Shown piece after piece: positions 18,001 through 37,773 of a stretch of 37,773 nt of DNA. The DNA comes from a bacterium (GTDB lineage Bacteria; UBA10199; JADGCS01). Each line of letters opens with the position of its first letter. Position 1 is the stretch's first letter. The position numbers and the translations under genes were made by a program. The stretch is taken from contig JAHJDR010000012.1 in the NCBI GenBank assembly GCA_018812345.1, positions 1 through 37,773 on the forward strand. Reading direction: 5' to 3'. The notes beneath the pieces were generated by a model. That model searched no databases. It was not told the origin of the DNA and saw nothing but the letters and a program-made list of their open reading frames with translations.

Positions 18001-18324
18001 GGAACAGCCAGCTTTCTTAAAGGTCATGGCCTTGATGTTTTTGTTGTGCAAAAACATTATGAAGGAGAGCCCAATATTTTGGAGCCTCTTGTTAAGAATA
18101 AAGTGGCTATGGTTGTTAATACGCATGAGGGAAAACTTTCCGCTGTGGATTCTTTTGAGCTCAGACGAACAGCCCTCATGACAAACACGCCATACTTTAC
18201 AACCTTAGCCGCTGCAGAAGCCGCTGTGATGGGAATATCTGAGCTGCGTCGCTCTCAAATGAATGTAAAGTCCATGCAAGAATATTTTAGTCAACAGAAT
18301 TTGAGAGAGATCTTTAATAAATAG
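15055..18324 (+). CDS. carB: Carbamoyl-phosphate synthase large subunit
   Basis: 1089 aa with duplicated ATP-grasp halves and an MGS-like C-terminal domain. The N-terminus is canonical ([32 protein letters not shown]). Confidence 0.97.
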
Positions 18325-18352
18325 TTACTAAAGAATATCATAAATTGAACTT

Positions 18353-18465
18353 AGTTCAATAGCCAATAATCAATAATGAATATCCAATATCCATTTGGTA
18401 GTTTCAAATCAGCACAGTACTAACTTGATGATTGGATATTGTTCTGTTGGATATTGAATATTGAA
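18353..18465. repeat. CAATATC/GATATTG-family hairpin element, copy 1
   Basis: It starts AGTTCAATAGCCAA. Left arm CAATAATCAATAATGAATATCCAATATCCAT. Right arm ACTTGATGATTGGATATTGTTCTGTTGGATATTGAATATTGAA. Confidence 0.85.
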
Positions 18466-18467
18466 AT

Positions 18468-19481
18468 TTAAAAAATGATTAATGACTTCAAGACCGTTCG
18501 CGTATTCATATCGCTTACCGCCTGATCAAACGCCTGCAGAGGATATTCTTGAAACATATTTGCCAAACCTAAGTTTTCATCTTTAAGAATGTTAAAAGAT
18601 TTAACCAATGAATCTGGTGTGGCAGAATAGCTTGTTATGATTTGGAGTTCGCGATGGTATAGCTCTGATGTATCAAGAGGGCCCACTTCACCAGAGAGGT
18701 GGCTGAAAAGATTTACAAATCCGCCATTACGAATCCAACTCAAAGATTCATTGAGCATGGTTGCCGGGCCGGCTGTGAAAATAATGCCATCTAAACCGCG
18801 GTTATTTGTTTTTGATTTTATGTGTTCTAAGACCAAGTCATTTACAGAGGCAAAGGCCTGATCAACACCCCAAGTTAGCGATTTCTCAGAGCGCTCAGGA
18901 TCAATATCAAGCCCGATAATATGACAATCAAGGCGTTTCAAAAGTTTTGTCATCATGAGGCCAATGGAGCCTAAACCAACAATCAAGATAGTATCATTGT
19001 TTTTTAAGGGAAGGCGATCAATGCTTCTTACGCAACAAGCCAAAGGCTCCATAAAAATAGCTTCTTTCCATGGCATGTTGTCTGGTATTTTTTGTGTTGT
19101 GTGTTTTAAGTGGGCTTCAGGGATGCAAATGTACTCGGCAAAACCGCCAGGAACAAAGTTTGTTGTCTTGAATGTGTCACACATGGAAAAACTGCCATGT
19201 GTGCAGTAGTGGCAATCAAAGCAGGGAACGTGGTGAGCCACAACAATTAATTCATTTTCATTATAGTCTTGAACAGCAGCCCCTTTTTTTACAATGCGTC
19301 CCACAAGTTCATGACCTAAGACAGTTGTTTTTTTCAAAAGCTTTAAATTTATTTTGAGAAGATCTGTACCACAAAGCCCGCAACCGAGTGTTTGTATGAG
19401 GACATCTTTGGGGCCTAGCTTTGGCTCTTCTATGGTAACAAGTTGGCTTGTGCCGTCTGTGTTGTTTTGTATTGCTTTCAT
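18468..19481 (-). CDS. Zinc-dependent medium-chain alcohol/polyol dehydrogenase family protein
   Basis: GCGLCGTDL, GHELVGRIV, a structural-Zn Cys cluster (CFDCHYCTHGSFSMC) and a Rossmann motif GLGSIG. Confidence 0.85.
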   Translation of the reverse strand: MKAIQNNTDGTSQLVTIEEPKLGPKDVLIQTLGCGLCGTDLLKINLKLLKKTTVLGHELVGRIVKKGAAVQDYNENELIVVAHHVPCFDCHYCTHGSFSMCDTFKTTNFVPGGFAEYICIPEAHLKHTTQKIPDNMPWKEAIFMEPLACCVRSIDRLPLKNNDTILIVGLGSIGLMMTKLLKRLDCHIIGLDIDPERSEKSLTWGVDQAFASVNDLVLEHIKSKTNNRGLDGIIFTAGPATMLNESLSWIRNGGFVNLFSHLSGEVGPLDTSELYHRELQIITSYSATPDSLVKSFNILKDENLGLANMFQEYPLQAFDQAVSDMNTRTVLKSLIIF

Positions 19482-19486
19482 GGCTT

Positions 19487-19566
19487 GGTTATCGGTTATA
19501 TCGGTTATCGGTTATCGGTTATCAGTTATCGGTTATCGGTTATCGGTTATCGGTTGTCGGTTATCG
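19487..19566. repeat. (GGTTATC)x11 tandem array abutting the ADH start codon
   Basis: Eleven units with three variants (GGTTATATC, AGTTATC, GGTTGTC). The array begins 6 nt from the ADH ATG (19481, minus strand). T10 homopolymer at 19572-19581. Confidence 0.9.
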
Positions 19567-19681
19567 TGGTGTTTTTTTTTTATAGTTTTATTATTATTGG
19601 AGAGCAATAATCAATATCAAATTGATTAATAGGTTGTTTAATGCCATATTTGCTATATTGTTAAGCAATTGTAATCGCTTA

Positions 19682-19725
19682 CGATAACACGATAACCTAT
19701 AACCGACAACCTATAACCGATAACC
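19682..19725. repeat. GATAAC-type heptamer array (inverted partner of 19487-19566) abutting the NRDE start codon
   Basis: CGATAAC ACGATAAC CTATAAC CGACAAC CTATAAC CGATAAC. It ends 4 nt before the ATG at 19730. Confidence 0.85.
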
Positions 19726-19729
19726 AATT

Positions 19730-20500
19730 ATGTGCCTCATATCTTTTATATACAAAATTCATCCTCAATATAAACTCATTTTAGTCTCAAATCGGGATGA
19801 GTTTAGAGGTCGGAAAACAAAACCAGCAGGTTTTTGGCAAAAGCAACCACAGCTGCTTGCTGGCATGGACGTAGAGCATCAAGGCACATGGCTTGGGGTC
19901 ACCAAGCAGGGTCGTTTTTCAGCGATAACAAATTTTCGTGATGGCCCCAGAAATACTTTGCCCCAAGAAAACTCTCGTGGCCATCTGGTGCGTGACTATC
20001 TTTTAGGAAACAAAAATCCGTTTACCTATCTTTTTAACTTTAGTGATAACGCTGGAGATTATGAGCCTTTTAATCTCTTAGTAGGTGATAAAGACAGGTT
20101 GTGTTTTTATTCTAACAAGGAACGGCAGATCTGGGAATTAGAGGCAGGTGTGTATGCGTTAAGCAATCATCTCTTAAACACGCCATGGCCAAAGACACAG
20201 ACGTTGAAAGAGTTTATGGAGTACCAAGCAGGGGAGTGGGAAGTGGATGTGGAAAAGATATTTAATTTCATGTTGGACACAAAGGAACCTGATGATGACA
20301 AGCTGCCCGATACGGGTGTGGGCATTGAATGGGAACGACGCATGAGTCCTTTGTTTGTGACCGGTGAAGACTATGGGACTGTGAGTTCAACCGTTATTTT
20401 ATGGGATAATGACGATAATATTTATTTTGCCGAAAGAACTTATAGAGGTGATTCGAAGAAGTTTGCTTTGAAGGAATTCAAATTTAAGATAGAGATGTAA
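19730..20500 (+). CDS. NRDE family protein (TANGO2/DUF833-like)
   Basis: N-terminal MC...SNRDEF signature and a length of about 256 aa. Confidence 0.8.
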   Translation: MCLISFIYKIHPQYKLILVSNRDEFRGRKTKPAGFWQKQPQLLAGMDVEHQGTWLGVTKQGRFSAITNFRDGPRNTLPQENSRGHLVRDYLLGNKNPFTYLFNFSDNAGDYEPFNLLVGDKDRLCFYSNKERQIWELEAGVYALSNHLLNTPWPKTQTLKEFMEYQAGEWEVDVEKIFNFMLDTKEPDDDKLPDTGVGIEWERRMSPLFVTGEDYGTVSSTVILWDNDDNIYFAERTYRGDSKKFALKEFKFKIEM

Positions 20501-20606
20501 AGTTCAATAGCCAACACTCAACAGAACAATATCCAATCATCAAGTAAGATGGCTAGTATTTTTAGTTGAATATTGGATATTGATTATTGGATATTGGATA
20601 TTGAAA
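20501..20606. repeat. CAATATC/GATATTG-family hairpin element, copy 2
   Basis: It starts AGTTCAATAGCCAA, as copy 1 does. The left arm contains CAACAGAACAATATCCAATCATCAAGT (20519-20545), the exact reverse complement of 18423-18449. Right arm TTGAATATTGGATATTGATTATTGGATATTGGATATTGAA. Confidence 0.85.
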
Positions 20607-20634
20607 AAAGGGCGCATTGGGGGCGCCCTTTTTT
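20604..20634. terminator. Bidirectional rho-independent terminator between convergent genes
   Basis: A6 run, then stem GGGCGC / GCGCCC (20610-20615 / 20623-20628) with a 7-nt loop, then T6 run. Confidence 0.8.
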
Positions 20635-20663
20635 GAGAGATTAGATTGAGATATGTTAATACA

Positions 20664-22919
20664 TCAATCTATAGATATAATATAAACTCGTCCAACGCTT
20701 GTGCCTGTATCACCATCATAACCAAAAGCGCTTACCACAACATCATCTGTGCCATTGCCATCTAGGTCACCAGCATTAATGATTCTGCTACCCGTGTTTT
20801 CGTTAGTGCTGCTACCAATAAATGTGGCTGTTGCCGTGTCTAGCGAATAGGTAGCAGGCGTTACAGGTTTTTCTTGGCCAGAAATATAATAGATTTTACC
20901 ATCATTATTTACATTATGGTCATAACTATAAGCGCCCACAAAAAGCTCACCATAGCCATCTCCATCCAGATCATTTACAAGGGCTGCGGCACCACCAGAG
21001 TAGTCAGAACTATTTTCGCCGGTGTAGAAAAGATCAGCTGTGCTGAGTGAGTTTGTTCCTGACAGGGCGGCGTCTCCATAAATAATATAGGTTTTGCCGG
21101 CATCTGTTGCGGCGTCATCACTGCCCATAATACCAACAACAAGATCATCTTTGCCATCATTGTTAATATCAACCCCACCGGTAACAACAAGTCCTGCAAG
21201 GTCTGCATTAGACTCACCGGTTAAGCAAATATCTGCTGTGCTAAGATTTATGGGGAGTGCGAGCAACGGTCTTTGTATTGAAGGGAGTGTTGCAAACGGT
21301 CCTGATAAGGCCCCTGTGTTATTGACTTTGTTTGTTTTTTCTCCAAAGAAAATATATACCTTGCCAGCATTAGTTGCGGCATCATCATTAAAAGCAGAGC
21401 TTATATAGAAATCATCCACACCATCACCATTGAAATCACCGACAGTTCCTGCTTTGATACCTGCGGCATCAGTGGTGTTTTCTCCAATAAAGGTTTGGTA
21501 TGCATCAGCAAGTGTCGTTGTTTCACTTACAGATGATCCTGAGAAGAGATAAACTTTTCCTGCTTCAGAGCCTGTTATATATGAATCAAAACCAAAGGCA
21601 GAGAGAAGGAAATCACCTTTTTTGTCACCATCTACATCACCAGCACTGGCTACATTGTTACCCAGGTAGTCATTTGCGTTTATGCCTGTAAACGTAACAT
21701 TGGCAGAAGAGAGGTTAATCGTTGTGCCCGAAGTAAACTCCTGGCCGTAAACCAAATAAACTTTACCAGCATTATTTCCAGCATCATCATTGCCAAAAGC
21801 GCCAATAAGGATTTCATCATAACCGTCGCTGTTTAAATCTTGAATAAGAGCAACAGAAATACCTGCTGAATCACCTTCGTTTTCTCCAATAAAAGTAACA
21901 TCAGCTGTGTCGGCTGACACATCAGATGTAATGTTTTCGTTGCCAAGGAAGAGATAAATATTTCCTGTTGAATTATTTTCTCCAAAAGCGCTGACAAGGA
22001 TATCATTATAACCATCGCCATTTACATCAGCATTACTGGCTGTGGCAAAACCAAAGAAGCTGTAATCACTTGTGCCATCAAAGTAGGTTGTGACATCAGC
22101 AAGGGCTAAATCTATATCAGCAACACCATCACAATCATTGTCGATGAAATCAAAGACCTCTGTGTTGCCAGAATAAGCATTGGGATCAAAGTCATCACAA
22201 TCAGTGTTGGCCTTGTCACCATCGCCATCAGCATCATTATCACCTTCAGTGTCTTCACAAACATCACCAGCATCGTCTCCATCGAGATCACTTTGGTCTT
22301 CGTTATCAACGTTAACACAATTATCACAGGCATCACCAAAACTATCATCATCAGAATTAGTTTGGTCTTCATTAGCGACTGTAGGACAATTATCATTTTC
22401 ATCAAGAATCATATCACCATCAGCATCATCGTTGTCTTCATCACAAAGATCGCCAATGCCATCATTGTCAGAATCTGTTTGGTCATTGTTGCCATCGTCA
22501 GGGCAATTATCGTTTTCATCGCAAATGCCATCAAGATCAGAATCTTGTGTGCCTGTGGCATCTGTAGGGCAATCATCATTAATATCAAGAACGCCGTCAT
22601 TGTCGTCATCGACATCACAGAGATCTCCTTCATCATCATCATCATTGTCTGCTTGGTTTGGATTGAAATAGTAGATGCAATTATCATTCTCATCAGCAAT
22701 GCCATCGCTATCTGTGTCGTTGAGGGTGGTGTTCCCTTCATCGGCATTTCCATCATCACCGGCATCATCAGCAGGAATTTCACCAGAGACATCTTCATTG
22801 ATGATATCACCAGTGATCTCATCTGATATTTTGTCGACACTGCACGCTGTTGAAAAAATAAACAGAATAGTAAAAACGCTCATGAAAATAATTTTAATTA
22901 AATATCTATATATTGCCAT
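20664..22919 (-). CDS. Lipoprotein with thrombospondin type-3 (Ca-binding) repeats and a seven-repeat FG-GAP (integrin-alpha-like) propeller
   Basis: Signal and lipobox ...FIFSTAC. Multiple DxDxDGxxDxxDNC motifs. Seven FG-GAP/Ca-loop blades (e.g. DVNGDGYNDILVSAFG, DLNSDGYDEILIGAFG, DVDGDKKGDFLLSAFG). Confidence 0.9.
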   Translation of the reverse strand: MAIYRYLIKIIFMSVFTILFIFSTACSVDKISDEITGDIINEDVSGEIPADDAGDDGNADEGNTTLNDTDSDGIADENDNCIYYFNPNQADNDDDDEGDLCDVDDDNDGVLDINDDCPTDATGTQDSDLDGICDENDNCPDDGNNDQTDSDNDGIGDLCDEDNDDADGDMILDENDNCPTVANEDQTNSDDDSFGDACDNCVNVDNEDQSDLDGDDAGDVCEDTEGDNDADGDGDKANTDCDDFDPNAYSGNTEVFDFIDNDCDGVADIDLALADVTTYFDGTSDYSFFGFATASNADVNGDGYNDILVSAFGENNSTGNIYLFLGNENITSDVSADTADVTFIGENEGDSAGISVALIQDLNSDGYDEILIGAFGNDDAGNNAGKVYLVYGQEFTSGTTINLSSANVTFTGINANDYLGNNVASAGDVDGDKKGDFLLSAFGFDSYITGSEAGKVYLFSGSSVSETTTLADAYQTFIGENTTDAAGIKAGTVGDFNGDGVDDFYISSAFNDDAATNAGKVYIFFGEKTNKVNNTGALSGPFATLPSIQRPLLALPINLSTADICLTGESNADLAGLVVTGGVDINNDGKDDLVVGIMGSDDAATDAGKTYIIYGDAALSGTNSLSTADLFYTGENSSDYSGGAAALVNDLDGDGYGELFVGAYSYDHNVNNDGKIYYISGQEKPVTPATYSLDTATATFIGSSTNENTGSRIINAGDLDGNGTDDVVVSAFGYDGDTGTSVGRVYIISID

Positions 22920-27045: not shown

Positions 27046-28446
27046 CTAAGTGCTCGAGCCTACAATTACATCCCATAAAACTCTTAAACCAAAATCTATA
27101 GAAGCTACTGGTATTCGTTCATCATGACCGTGAAATAACGAACCAAAGCTTATGTCTGGAGGTAGTTTCATTGGTGTAAACCCGTAGCATTTAATGCCGA
27201 GACGTGAGTAGTGTTTTGCGTCTGTGTATCCGGGTATGAGAAAAGGAACGGGAATGGCACCAGGATCATGTTTTATTAAAGTGTTTTCGAGAAGCTTATA
27301 AAACTCATTTTTGTAATTGGTTATAATAGGCTCTTGGGCTTTGAGTATTTCTATTTGAAACCCAGGGCCTATGAGAGCTTTAACTTCTTGAATAAATTCA
27401 TCAGTGCTTTGCCCAGGCAAAACGCGACCATCCACGAGCATTTCTGCTTTTGAGGCAATAACGTTAATTTTGCTGCCAGAGTGAAATACTGTGGGTGTCG
27501 CAAGATTGTGAAACATGCTATGAAAGTTTCGCGCTCTTTCTTTGTCTGGAAATATTTTGTTAAGAACAAAGTTTGAACAAAAGCGTTTTTGGATTCCTTT
27601 GAGAATAAGATTTTTCGGAAAGGGTTGGTGTTTGGCCAAACAATCGATAAACTTACGAGCTGGTTTAGAGCTATGAAAAGGCAGGCTTGTGTTGGCGAGC
27701 TTATGGGCTGCAAGTCCTAGGTTAGCCAGGGCTTGTTCATCCTGTGGCAAGGACGTGTGTCCTGTTTTTCCTGTGGCAATAATACGAAGCCAGCAGGAGC
27801 CTTTTTCAGCAACACCAATGGGGTAAAATACTTTTTTATCAATGGGCAGGCTGAAAGCACCCACTTCATTGAGGGCATATTCTGCTCGTATCAAATCTGA
27901 GTGGTGATTAACCAGCCATTTAGAGCCATAGTCACAACCTGTTTCTTCATCAGCGACAGCGGCTAAGATAAGATCTCTTTTAAGCGGTATTTTTTCTCTA
28001 TGTGCTTTCAGAAAAACACAAAGCTCCATAGCACTCATGTGTTTCATGTCGACAGCACCGCGCCCCCAAATAAAACCATCTTTTTCTTCTCCAGAAAAGG
28101 GGTCTGTCATCCATTTCTTTGTTTCTGCAGGAACAACATCAAGATGGCTTGTTAAAAGCAGTGGTTGTTCTGAGCCATCTCCCGAAAGGCGCGCTATAAG
28201 ATTGCCACGTTCTGGTACGGGTTCTAAAATGTGGTAATCAATTTTTTCTTTTTTAAGGATTTTTGCGATATATTTACACGCTTCCAATTCGTTTCCTGGG
28301 GGGTTTGTTGTATTAATACGAATGAGGTTTTGAAGGTGTGTGATACATTCTTGAATGTCTTGATCAGTAATTTTTAGCCCGTCATTCATCATGCAAAGAG
28401 TATATGATAGGTTGGGAAGGGGTTCAATGGGAATTTCAATACTCAA
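27046..28446 (-). CDS. M20 family metallopeptidase (ArgE/DapE/ACY1/CPG2 type)
   Basis: HLDVVP, GRGAVDMK and ADEETG metal and catalytic motifs. The ORF as listed starts at a TTG. The ATG at 28392 (MMNDGL...) is an equally plausible start. Confidence 0.85.
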   Translation of the reverse strand: MSIEIPIEPLPNLSYTLCMMNDGLKITDQDIQECITHLQNLIRINTTNPPGNELEACKYIAKILKKEKIDYHILEPVPERGNLIARLSGDGSEQPLLLTSHLDVVPAETKKWMTDPFSGEEKDGFIWGRGAVDMKHMSAMELCVFLKAHREKIPLKRDLILAAVADEETGCDYGSKWLVNHHSDLIRAEYALNEVGAFSLPIDKKVFYPIGVAEKGSCWLRIIATGKTGHTSLPQDEQALANLGLAAHKLANTSLPFHSSKPARKFIDCLAKHQPFPKNLILKGIQKRFCSNFVLNKIFPDKERARNFHSMFHNLATPTVFHSGSKINVIASKAEMLVDGRVLPGQSTDEFIQEVKALIGPGFQIEILKAQEPIITNYKNEFYKLLENTLIKHDPGAIPVPFLIPGYTDAKHYSRLGIKCYGFTPMKLPPDISFGSLFHGHDERIPVASIDFGLRVLWDVIVGSST

Positions 28447-28538
28447 TATTCAATAATGAATATCCAATATCCATGTTTTAAGCCTGTTTGGTTATGGATT
28501 TAAGGGGTGTTGATTATTGGATATTGAAGATTGATAAC
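28442..28538. repeat. CAATATC/GATATTG-family hairpin element, copy 3
   Basis: The left arm contains CAATAATGAATATCCAATATCCAT (28451-28474), identical to 18371-18394. Right arm TTGATTATTGGATATTGAAGATTGATAAC. Confidence 0.85.
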
Positions 28539-37690: not shown

Positions 37691-37773
37691 GCTATCGTCC
37701 ATCGTCTAGCGTCTATTTCGCTAGACGCTAGACGCTAGACGCTAGACGCTAGACGCTAGACGCTAGACGATAG
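37691..37773. repeat. Heptamer-array hairpin with (CTAGACG)x7, truncated by the window end
   Basis: CGTCTAGCGTCTA (37703-37715) pairs perfectly over 13 bp with TAGACGCTAGACG (37722-37734). Seven perfect CTAGACG units span 37721-37769. Confidence 0.9.

What the first reader, a model, noticed from the sequence alone, without database searches (positions are those of the whole stretch)
18353..20606. A 2.1 kb two-gene module (ADH / NRDE) is bracketed by copies of one ~110-bp element, including a perfect 27-bp inverted repeat
ACTTGATGATTGGATATTGTTCTGTTG (18423-18449) is the exact reverse complement of 20519-20545. Both elements begin with the same 14-mer, AGTTCAATAGCCAA (18353-18366 and 20501-20514), placed just after a plus-strand stop codon. 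A third copy at 28442-28538 shares an identical 24-mer with copy 1 (18371-18394 = 28451-28474). A perfect 27-bp match is far beyond chance in 38 kb. It means recent duplication, gene conversion, or functional pairing of these elements. The bracketed segment could be an invertible or mobilisable cassette, or the elements could be MITE-like. No recombinase or transposase lies within the window.
Basis: seen in the sequence. Interest (0 to 1): 0.6.

Follow-up and report, generated by a model that had tools for sequence, protein, structure and literature searches.

The report
Dispersed heptamer-hairpin repeats, not a cassette
The two look-alike sequences around the ADH/TANGO2 gene pair are ordinary copies of a roughly 90-base self-folding repeat present about 47 times in this genome; they arrived after the gene pair was in place and do not form an invertible or mobile cassette.

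Summary
The 27-mer inverted match, the shared 14-mer and the shared 24-mer are all exact. The cassette reading fails.

- **What the element is.** Each "element" is an imperfect palindrome. It has five CAATAnn units, a loop of about 13 nt, and five nnTATTG units. Direct and inverted matches between copies are therefore built in.
- **Copy number.** The family has about 47 loci in this 3.06 Mb MAG. Thirty-three family pairs share 27 or more exact bases. Each flanking copy has an equal or better partner on another contig.
- **Relatives.** A congener (G002) has the same order and orientation, carA-carB-ADH(-)-TANGO2(+)-FG-GAP(-), and none of these elements.
- **Other strains.** Contigs from four other assemblies of the same species (99.8-99.98% identical) are colinear. 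They differ only by single 7-nt unit indels and SNPs. One SNP breaks the "perfect" 27-mer.
- **Recombinase.** No recombinase lies in the window.
- **Evidence of insertion.** At two other loci the element sits where relatives have overlapping genes or a roughly 60-nt spacer. This makes it an inserted, MITE/REPIN-like dispersed repeat.

The family is one of many 7-nt-period intergenic arrays in this genome. This scan had already noted those arrays on other DNA of the same genome. How the element spreads and what it does in RNA remain untested.

The parts
18353..18466 (.). Copy 1 of the CAATAnn hairpin element, in the convergent carB/ADH spacer. The left arm has 5 CAATAnn units, the loop is enlarged to about 30 nt, and the right arm carries the TTCTGTTG variant unit. 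By its loop it is in 'forward' orientation.
   Evidence: Sequence. It folds as a hairpin on both strands, z = -3.3 and -3.7. Family alignment. Identical in the two other assemblies that cover it.
20501..20606 (.). Copy 2 of the element, directly after the TANGO2 stop codon. Its loop-defined orientation is inverted relative to copy 1, and it belongs to the same right-arm subfamily as copy 1 and the C184 copy.
   Evidence: (z = -6.0 and -10.0; the folded stretch also contains the adjacent terminator stem, which adds to these scores). Between strains it shows a 7-nt unit indel and a C-to-G SNP inside the 27-mer.
20604..20634 (.). Canonical bidirectional intrinsic terminator (A-run, GGGCGC stem, GCGCCC, T-run) between copy 2 and the FG-GAP gene.
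   Evidence: An 11-pair stem flanked by A and T runs. A similar GC stem sits at the same position in congener G002.
28434..28536 (.). Copy 3 of the element, in the divergent spacer between the M20 peptidase gene (start at 28392 by another assembly's gene call) and a LolA-like gene.
   Evidence: (z = -4.8 on the + strand). Identical in two other assemblies.
18468..19481 (-). Zinc-type alcohol dehydrogenase gene (337 aa).
   Evidence: Pfam ADH_N and ADH_zinc_N. A 66%-identical orthologue lies at the same position in G002.
19730..20500 (+). TANGO2 / NRDE-family gene (256 aa).
   Evidence: Pfam PF05742, E = 3e-66. A 54%-identical orthologue lies at the same position in G002. The gene was found in only 3 of 41 related genomes searched.
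19487..19566 (.). GGTTATC x 11 array abutting the ADH start codon. It belongs to a different heptamer family.
   Evidence: TRF. One-unit length polymorphism and SNPs between strains.
19682..19725 (.). Inverted partner array (CGATAAC / CTATAAC x 6) abutting the TANGO2 start codon. Because the genes diverge, both mRNA leaders would carry GATAACC-type repeats.
   Evidence: (inverted repeats I3-I11). The 115-nt AT-rich centre holds the best promoter-like match.

Best explanation
The sequences flanking ADH/TANGO2 are two ordinary members of a non-coding, non-autonomous, dispersed palindromic repeat family. The third copy, 8 kb away, is another member.

The consensus is about 88-90 nt: TTCAATAnn(CAATAnn)4-CCA, a loop of about 13 nt (usually GTGAAGAnTTAC, in either orientation), then TGG-(nnTATTG)5AA. 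Each copy folds on itself into a long interrupted stem of 5-bp CAATA/TATTG helices separated by 2-nt bulges.

Shown:
- The family multiplied in this species only.
- Copies were inserted into pre-existing short spacers and at gene junctions.
- After insertion the arms evolve by gain or loss of single 7-nt units and by point mutation.
- The ADH/TANGO2 pair was already in place before the elements arrived, so the bracketing is incidental.

Inferred:
- Copies spread as hairpin-forming DNA without a target-site duplication. This could be through a trans-acting hairpin-specific enzyme, such as one of the genome's HUH/Y1 transposases, or through template switching or gene conversion.
- Copies are tolerated inside operons because the transcript folds the insert out. 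That leaves the upstream stop codon, with the Shine-Dalgarno-like purine run before it, next to the downstream start codon.
For: - **Self-complementarity.** All three window copies fold as hairpins well beyond shuffled controls.
- **A true family.** There are 47 loci with conserved unit order, conserved termini and a family-specific loop.
- **Species-specific.** The five-unit arm pattern hits 42 times in G000, once in congener G001, and never in G002 or in 38 further relatives.
- **The 27-mer is not special.** Thirty-three family pairs share at least 27 exact bases. Copy 1's longest matches are on C131 (32 nt) and C6 (30 nt). Copy 2's longest is on C184 (28 nt). Right-arm identity is 95% and 91% to C184 against 88% between the two flanking copies.
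- **The module predates the elements.** G002 has carA-carB-ADH(-)-TANGO2(+)-FG-GAP(-)-aminotransferase in the same order and orientation. Its spacers hold unrelated repeats.
- **No variants.** Contigs from four other assemblies are colinear at 99.78-99.98% identity, each giving a single BLAST alignment over its full length or nearly so. The only indels are single 7-nt units.
- **Insertion elsewhere.** On C144 the element fills a 101-nt spacer where the G002 orthologues overlap (ATGA). On C77 the spacer is about 180 nt, against about 60-65 nt in G002 and G003, with the same TTGACA promoter box retained.
- **Position.** In operon spacers the element begins 0-3 nt after the stop codon in 6 of 14 cases. 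In several cases the next ATG follows within 3-11 nt with no ribosome-binding site in between.
- **No recombinase in the window**.
Against: - No mobilising enzyme is linked to the family. None of the six Y1_Tnp genes lies on a contig with a family copy. Four of them are flanked by different GGGGTCA-type repeats.
- No target-site duplication and no parent insertion sequence were found.
- The stem shows no compensatory changes. All 26 consensus pairs are invariant or changed on one side only, so selection for pairing is not demonstrated.
- No presence/absence polymorphism was seen between strains at the four loci compared, so current mobility is unproven.
- Copies 1 and 2 do share a derived variant, so a local inverted duplication cannot be excluded.
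- Same-unit arrays of all families are modestly clustered (46 pairs within 3 kb against 26 +/- 5 expected).
Confidence: 0.85

Rival explanations
1. The 2.1 kb segment is an invertible or mobilisable cassette. The inverted 27-bp repeats would be recombination sites that flip or move ADH/TANGO2.
For: Two same-family elements in inverted orientation bracket the segment and share a perfect 27-mer. They share a derived right-arm variant. Twenty-seven bases is near the minimum length for homologous recombination (general knowledge).
Against: Congener G002 has the same order and orientation but lacks the elements. Contigs from four other assemblies of the species are colinear. One strain has a SNP inside the 27-mer. 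No recombinase lies in the 37.8 kb window. Both genes are served by a divergent promoter region inside the segment, so flipping would switch nothing. The 27-mer also occurs on C184, and family pairs with at least 27 exact bases are common.
Confidence: 0.02
2. The copies are not a dispersed element. They would be independent simple-sequence arrays that grew in place by slippage and converged on an AT-rich heptamer.
For: Slippage does operate: strains differ by single 7-nt units. The genome holds 1105 period-7 arrays with 223 distinct units. At the spacer after dut, four relatives each carry a different short-period array. The same 22-mer appears in AATATCC-type arrays of unrelated metagenome organisms.
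Against: Slippage cannot reproduce the same order of variant units (CAATAGC-CAATAAT-CAATAAT-GAATATC-CAATATC), the same termini and the same non-repetitive loop at dozens of loci. On C144 a complete element sits where G002 has no spacer at all.
Confidence: 0.05
3. The hairpins are kept mainly because they act in RNA. Possible roles are 3'-end protection, RNase III-type processing sites, or bridges that keep translational coupling across a spacer. Their spread would then be driven by selection rather than selfish copying. This is compatible with the best explanation as a secondary role.
For: Elements lie in transcribed spacers of all types: 22 tandem, 9 convergent and 5 divergent. They often abut the stop and start codons, with no ribosome-binding site between the element and the ATG but a purine run before the element. 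By my reading of the orientations against the gene directions, loop orientation matches the direction of transcription in 13 of 17 operon spacers. Copy 2 sits next to a separate canonical terminator, so it is not itself the terminator.
Against: There is no covariation in the stem. The variable dinucleotides are not kept complementary. Copy 2 is antisense to the only transcript likely to contain it. Orthologous spacers in relatives do without the element. No transcript data could be obtained.
Confidence: 0.25

Closest known systems
REPINs (REP doublets forming hairpins) mobilised by RAYT transposases; Bertels & Rainey 2011, PMC3116915
   Same: A hairpin of about 90-100 nt made of two inverted conserved arms and a less conserved spacer. 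It is extragenic, present in tens to hundreds of copies, lineage-specific, and many singlet or decayed copies exist (paper read).
   Different: The arms are tandem heptamers, not short REP palindromes. No cognate RAYT flanked by the family was found. The Y1 transposase genes here carry GGGGTCA-type repeats instead. No compensatory changes were seen, whereas the paper reports them as common.
Inverted pairs of heptameric GGGAATC repeats in Xanthomonas, and heptamer repeats of Nostoc/Calothrix (STRR-type); Rehm et al. 2015, PMC4692102
   Same: Intergenic arrays with 7-nt units, many arranged as convergent pairs able to form stem-loops (70-75 such pairs per Xanthomonas genome). Repeat length varies between related genomes (compared).
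   Different: Those repeats are G-rich simple repeats studied for quadruplex formation. Here the unit is AT-rich with a 5-nt conserved core, and the copies share a fixed unit order, termini and loop, so they form a dispersed composite element. The genome carries 223 different period-7 units rather than one dominant unit.
Bacterial MITEs and small palindromic repeats (Correia/NEMIS, ERIC, RUP, Rickettsia palindromic elements) - from general knowledge
   Same: Non-coding elements of about 100 nt with long terminal inverted repeats, inserted in spacers and at gene ends. They sometimes supply the last codons and the stop codon of a gene, as on C316.
   Different: No target-site duplication and no parent insertion sequence with the same ends were found. 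The internal 7-nt periodicity and unit slippage are not typical of MITEs.
Invertible DNA switches (invertons) and composite transposons - from general knowledge
   Same: Inverted repeats bracket a DNA segment.
   Different: There is no adjacent recombinase or transposase, no alternative orientation in any of the assemblies that span the segment, no promoter or coding switch logic, and the segment is at the same site in a congener without the repeats.

Membership tests
Invertible DNA switch (inverton) | Inverted repeats flanking the segment | tested here: met
   27-nt exact inverted match, extending to 51 nt at 86% complementarity.
Invertible DNA switch (inverton) | Both orientations present in the population or in relatives | tested here: not met
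   Congener G002 and contigs from four other assemblies of the species all show the same orientation.
Invertible DNA switch (inverton) | Site-specific recombinase encoded nearby | tested here: not met
   No recombinase or transposase domain in any window ORF.
Composite transposon / mobilisable cassette | The cassette's presence at a site depends on its flanking elements; the site is empty in relatives | tested here: not met
   G002 has ADH and TANGO2 between carB and the FG-GAP gene but has zero copies of the element family.
MITE | Short, non-coding, multi-copy, with terminal inverted repeats | tested here: met
   About 88-110 nt, 47 loci, 35-45-nt inverted arms ending TTCAATA...TATTGAA.
MITE | Target-site duplication flanking each copy | tested here: not met
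   Flanks of about 27 aligned copies show no consistent direct repeat. The inspection was by eye, and the AT-rich flanks limit its power.
MITE | Autonomous parent element with the same terminal repeats | tested here: inconclusive
   The only pair of opposed arms 0.5-3 kb apart is the flagged ADH/TANGO2 locus, which holds no transposase. The MAG has 435 contigs, and 9 family loci lie at contig ends.
REPIN / RAYT system | Two inverted conserved sequences plus a spacer forming a hairpin, located extragenically | tested here: met
REPIN / RAYT system | Family copies flank a cognate single-copy RAYT (Y1 transposase) gene | tested here: not met
   There are six PF01797 matches. None lies on a contig with a family copy. 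Four of them are flanked by GGGGTCA/TGACCCC repeats. Two of those genes sit at contig ends, so absence is not proven.
REPIN / RAYT system | Compensatory changes maintaining the hairpin | tested here: not met
   0 of 26 consensus pairs show a change on both sides in 14 full copies.
Heptamer tandem repeats (STRR-type; Xanthomonas GGGAATC pairs) | Tandem 7-nt units in intergenic DNA, often as convergent pairs | tested here: met
   TRF period 7 in all copies. Genome-wide, 863 of 1105 period-7 arrays lie outside called ORFs, and 460 of 1474 spacers carry one.
Heptamer tandem repeats (STRR-type; Xanthomonas GGGAATC pairs) | Unit-number variation between strains | tested here: met
   +7 nt in the copy 2 right arm in two assemblies, and -7 nt in the GGTTATC array in one.

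The most novel reading that the evidence does not exclude
Heptamer-unit hairpins may be a distinct class of mobile DNA. They would be inserted as pre-folded single-stranded hairpins at stop/start junctions without target duplication, by an enzyme not yet linked to them. They would be tolerated because the transcript loops the insert out and so preserves translational coupling. The identical 22-mer in heptamer hairpins of unrelated metagenome organisms would then reflect a conserved recognition sequence or horizontal spread rather than convergence.
Probability: 0.15. Interest if true: 0.6.

Novelty: new variant of a known kind. Interest (0 to 1): 0.3.

Why it matters
For the claim as posed, the result clears away a false lead: this locus holds no phase-variable or mobile metabolic cassette.

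The useful residue is a cleanly defined, species-specific family of small palindromic repeats built from 7-nt units. There is empty-site evidence of insertion, including one case between two genes that overlap in a sister species. There is also direct evidence that the arms change by whole-unit slippage between strains. This links two phenomena usually treated separately: heptamer simple repeats (STRR-type) and REP/MITE-like dispersed hairpins.

The family also gives a tractable system for asking how hairpin inserts are tolerated inside operons. These repeats break short-read assemblies as well. Nine of the 47 loci lie at contig ends, and several contigs from other assemblies end inside the elements.

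Tried and rejected
- **Sequencing runs.** Independent assemblies were used instead.
- **Rfam.** Nothing near threshold over 18200-20800; the best match had E = 0.24.
- **Taxonomy.** CarB is too conserved, at most 62% identity to genomes from many phyla. A literature search by accession found nothing relevant. The lineage remains unnamed here.
- **Local clustering as support for a cassette.** For this family, 4 pairs within 12 kb against 2.5 +/- 1.7 expected, P = 0.25. It is not significant, although all heptamer families pooled are modestly clustered.
- **A loop motif shared across heptamer families.** The loop is specific to this family, 9 of 12 genome hits, so there is no common loop module.
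- **Covariation.** None detectable, because the paired cores are invariant.
- **Strain-level presence/absence.** All copies compared were fixed in every assembly that covers them: window copies 1-3 and the C77 and C316 copies.
- **Integron attC-like cassette sites.** Considered and set aside without a formal test. The two genes diverge from an internal promoter region, the elements occur in all spacer types and orientations, and their ends (TTCAATA...TATTGAA) do not match the attC core as I recall it.
Full report
**Observation**

The window is one whole contig (C342) of a 3.06 Mb, 435-contig, 39% GC metagenome-assembled genome.
- 18423-18449 is the reverse complement of 20519-20545 (27 nt).
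- AGTTCAATAGCCAA occurs at 18353 and 20501.
- 18371-18394 equals 28451-28474 (24 nt).

Against random sequence a 27-nt inverted match is expected about 4e-8 times. Only copy 2 directly follows a real stop codon. Copy 1 starts 28 nt after the carB stop.

**What the "element" is**

Each copy is itself an imperfect palindrome. Copy 1 (about 18355-18465), copy 2 (about 20503-20605) and copy 3 (about 28435-28528) fold into long interrupted hairpins on either strand. Their z-scores range from -2.5 to -10 against dinucleotide shuffles. The two strongest scores belong to the copy 2 stretch, which also contains the adjacent terminator stem.

The arms are tandem 7-nt units, CAATAnn on the left and nnTATTG on the right. 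A palindrome matches a second copy of itself both directly and in inverted sense.

**Family size and shape**

A periodic-core search finds 47 loci in the genome. The flagged elements also give BLAST matches on dozens of other contigs.

Aligned copies give a consensus of about 88-90 nt: TTCAATAttCAATATCCAATAATCAATATCCAATATCCATG-TGAAGAnTTAC-TTGGATATTGGATATTGATTATTGAATATTGGATATTGAA.

Three features point to copying from a common source rather than independent slippage:
- The order of variant units is conserved.
- The termini are conserved.
- The non-repetitive loop is conserved. The loop motif GTGAAGAnTnAC hits the genome 12 times, 9 of them inside this family.

The family lies in tandem (22), convergent (9) and divergent (5) spacers. 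It often fills the whole spacer.

**Is the 27-mer special?**

It is not. Among the 1081 pairs of family members, 33 share at least 27 exact bases, and 28 of the 47 elements have such a partner.
- Copy 1's longest matches are on C131 (32 nt) and C6 (30 nt).
- Copy 2's longest match is on C184 (28 nt).
- The 27-mer itself occurs a third time, on C184.

When oriented by the asymmetric loop, copies 1 and 2 are inverted relative to each other. They share a derived right-arm variant, an 8-nt unit TTCTGTTG, but C184 shares it too. C184 is closer to each of them (95% and 91%) than they are to each other (88%). Copy 1's left arm is closest to C131 (95%), so the arms have mosaic affinities.

Family copies are not significantly clustered on contigs: 4 pairs within 12 kb against 2.5 +/- 1.7 for random placement among array-bearing spacers. 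All heptamer families pooled show a modest excess of same-unit neighbours: 83 against 59 +/- 8 within 12 kb, and 46 against 26 +/- 5 within 3 kb.

**Cassette test in relatives**

TANGO2 was found in only 3 of 41 related genomes. In congener G002, however, the whole neighbourhood has the same order and orientation as the window. The genes and their protein identities are:
- carA, 71%
- carB, 82%
- ADH on the minus strand, 66%
- TANGO2 on the plus strand, 54%
- the FG-GAP gene on the minus strand, 51%
- the aminotransferase, 74%
- the LysR-type regulator gene

G002's spacers hold unrelated short repeats: GGGTCGTn octamers and CTCGTTC heptamers after carB. A GC-stem terminator sits after TANGO2.

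The five-unit arm pattern occurs 42 times in G000, once in G001, and never in G002 or in 38 further relatives. The gene pair therefore predates the elements.

**Cassette test within the species**

The exact TANGO2 and LolA-like proteins are encoded on contigs from other assemblies: two NCBI assemblies, one ENA assembly, and Logan contigs from two runs. These contigs are 99.78-99.98% identical to the window. Each aligns as a single colinear block over its full length or nearly so, between window positions 15.7-24.5 kb and 25.4-29.9 kb.

The only indels are single 7-nt units:
- One extra TATTGAT unit in the right arm of copy 2, in two assemblies.
- One GGTTATC unit fewer before ADH, in one assembly.

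One assembly also has a C-to-G change inside copy 2's 27-mer, so the perfect inverted repeat is not even conserved between strains.

No window ORF has a recombinase or transposase domain. ADH and TANGO2 diverge from a 248-nt spacer that holds the best promoter-like match, so inversion of the segment would not change what drives either gene.

**Evidence that the element is an insertion**

- **C144.** The element fills a 101-nt spacer between two co-directional genes. Their G002 orthologues (81% and 67% identity) overlap as ATGA.
- **C77.** The spacer between a nadD-like gene and a zinc-ribbon gene is about 180 nt with the element. It is about 60-65 nt in G002 and G003, which keep the same CTATTGACA promoter box.
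- **C316.** The element overlaps the 3' ends of both convergent genes and supplies their last codons and stop codons.
- **After dut.** Four relatives each carry a different short-period array at the same spot. Such spacers appear to be recurrently colonised or renewed.

No target-site duplication is evident.

**Link to a mobilising enzyme**

The genome has six Y1_Tnp (PF01797) matches. None lies on a contig with a family copy. Four of them are flanked by inverted GGGGTCA/TGACCCC repeats, a classical REP/RAYT-like arrangement of a different repeat. REPIN membership is therefore not met, although fragmentation of the assembly limits this test.

**Function**

Rfam gives nothing. RNAalifold on 14 full copies recovers five 5-bp CAATA/TATTG helices separated by 2-nt interruptions. 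All 26 pairs are invariant or changed on one side only, so there is no covariation evidence.

Copy 2 is followed by a separate canonical bidirectional terminator, so the heptamer hairpin is not itself the terminator.

In operon spacers the element starts 0-3 nt after the stop codon in 6 of 14 cases. In several cases the next ATG follows within 3-11 nt, with no ribosome-binding site in between but a purine run just before the element. From this I infer, without any test, that folding of the transcript loops the insert out. That would keep the stop codon, the Shine-Dalgarno-like run and the next start codon close together, which would explain tolerance inside operons.

**Context and prior knowledge**

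The family is one of many. TRF finds 1105 period-7 arrays with 223 distinct units, and 460 of 1474 spacers of at least 30 nt carry one. Earlier notes of this scan had already flagged the pervasive heptamer hairpins in this genome on other DNA.

Inverted pairs of heptamer repeats are described in Xanthomonas (Rehm et al. 2015, PMC4692102). REPINs are the closest mobile-hairpin model (Bertels & Rainey 2011, PMC3116915).

The exact 22-mer AATAATGAATATCCAATATCCA also occurs in heptamer arrays on 8 metagenome contigs. These come from unrelated organisms (GC 37-57%; proteins 22-63% identical to this genome or without a match), and some of the arrays form hairpins. I leave this unexplained.

**Verdict**

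The cassette interpretation is rejected, and the MITE-like reading is partly upheld. The locus is an ordinary pair of housekeeping-type genes whose spacers were colonised by a species-specific, heptamer-built palindromic repeat.

Noticed in passing
G000 contigs C117:300-1480, C14:290-480, C15:20120-20260, C120:17230-18340: Four Y1_Tnp (HUH transposase) genes are flanked by GGGGTCA-type repeats, inverted on both sides where both flanks are assembled (C117, C120). GACCCCT occurs 121 times in the genome. This looks like a classical REP/RAYT system and is distinct from the heptamer hairpins.
   Followed up: partly
L128-L135 (metagenome contigs): The exact 22-mer AATAATGAATATCCAATATCCA lies in AATATCC-type heptamer arrays on 8 metagenome contigs. 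These come from unrelated organisms (GC 37-57%; proteins 22-63% identical to this genome or without a match). L133 (marine) and L131 carry it in hairpin form. Convergence, a shared recognition sequence and horizontal spread are all still open.
   Followed up: partly
window 19482-19729: The divergent ADH/TANGO2 spacer has GGTTATC x 11 abutting the ADH start and its inverted partner abutting the TANGO2 start. Both mRNA leaders would therefore carry the same GATAACC-type repeat, with no obvious Shine-Dalgarno sequence. Unit number differs between strains.
   Followed up: partly
G000 C182:3938-4026 and orthologous spacers L154 (G002), L155 (G001), L156 (G003): The spacer after dut carries a different short-period array in each of four relatives: the CAATAnn hairpin, TAGCTAG x 5, CGAGCTCA x 5, and GTTCGTGAT x 2. 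In G003 the unit seems to be copied from the gene's own last codons plus its stop codon.
   Followed up: no
G000 C316:23027-23115: One element overlaps the 3' ends of both convergent genes (NTPase_1 and HycI) and supplies their final codons and stop codons. It is identical in the other assemblies compared.
   Followed up: partly
G000 C60:4108 and C60:5262: Two ACGCTAG-family hairpins with similar loops (GGGGTGCCAATAAT and GGGGTATCAATAAT) lie about 1.1 kb apart in inverted orientation. This is another same-family bracket. Pooled over all families, same-unit arrays are modestly enriched within 3 kb (46 against 26 +/- 5).
   Followed up: partly
window 37719-37773 and contig ends generally: The contig ends inside a CGCTAGA array. 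Nine of the 47 CAATAnn loci lie at contig ends, and several contigs from other assemblies stop inside these elements. The repeats cause assembly breaks, so true copy numbers are probably higher.
   Followed up: no
window 19730-20500: The TANGO2/NRDE-family gene was found in only 3 of 41 related genomes searched. The close ADH orthologue was found only in G002 among four family members searched. The pair may be an old acquisition of this genus.
   Followed up: partly
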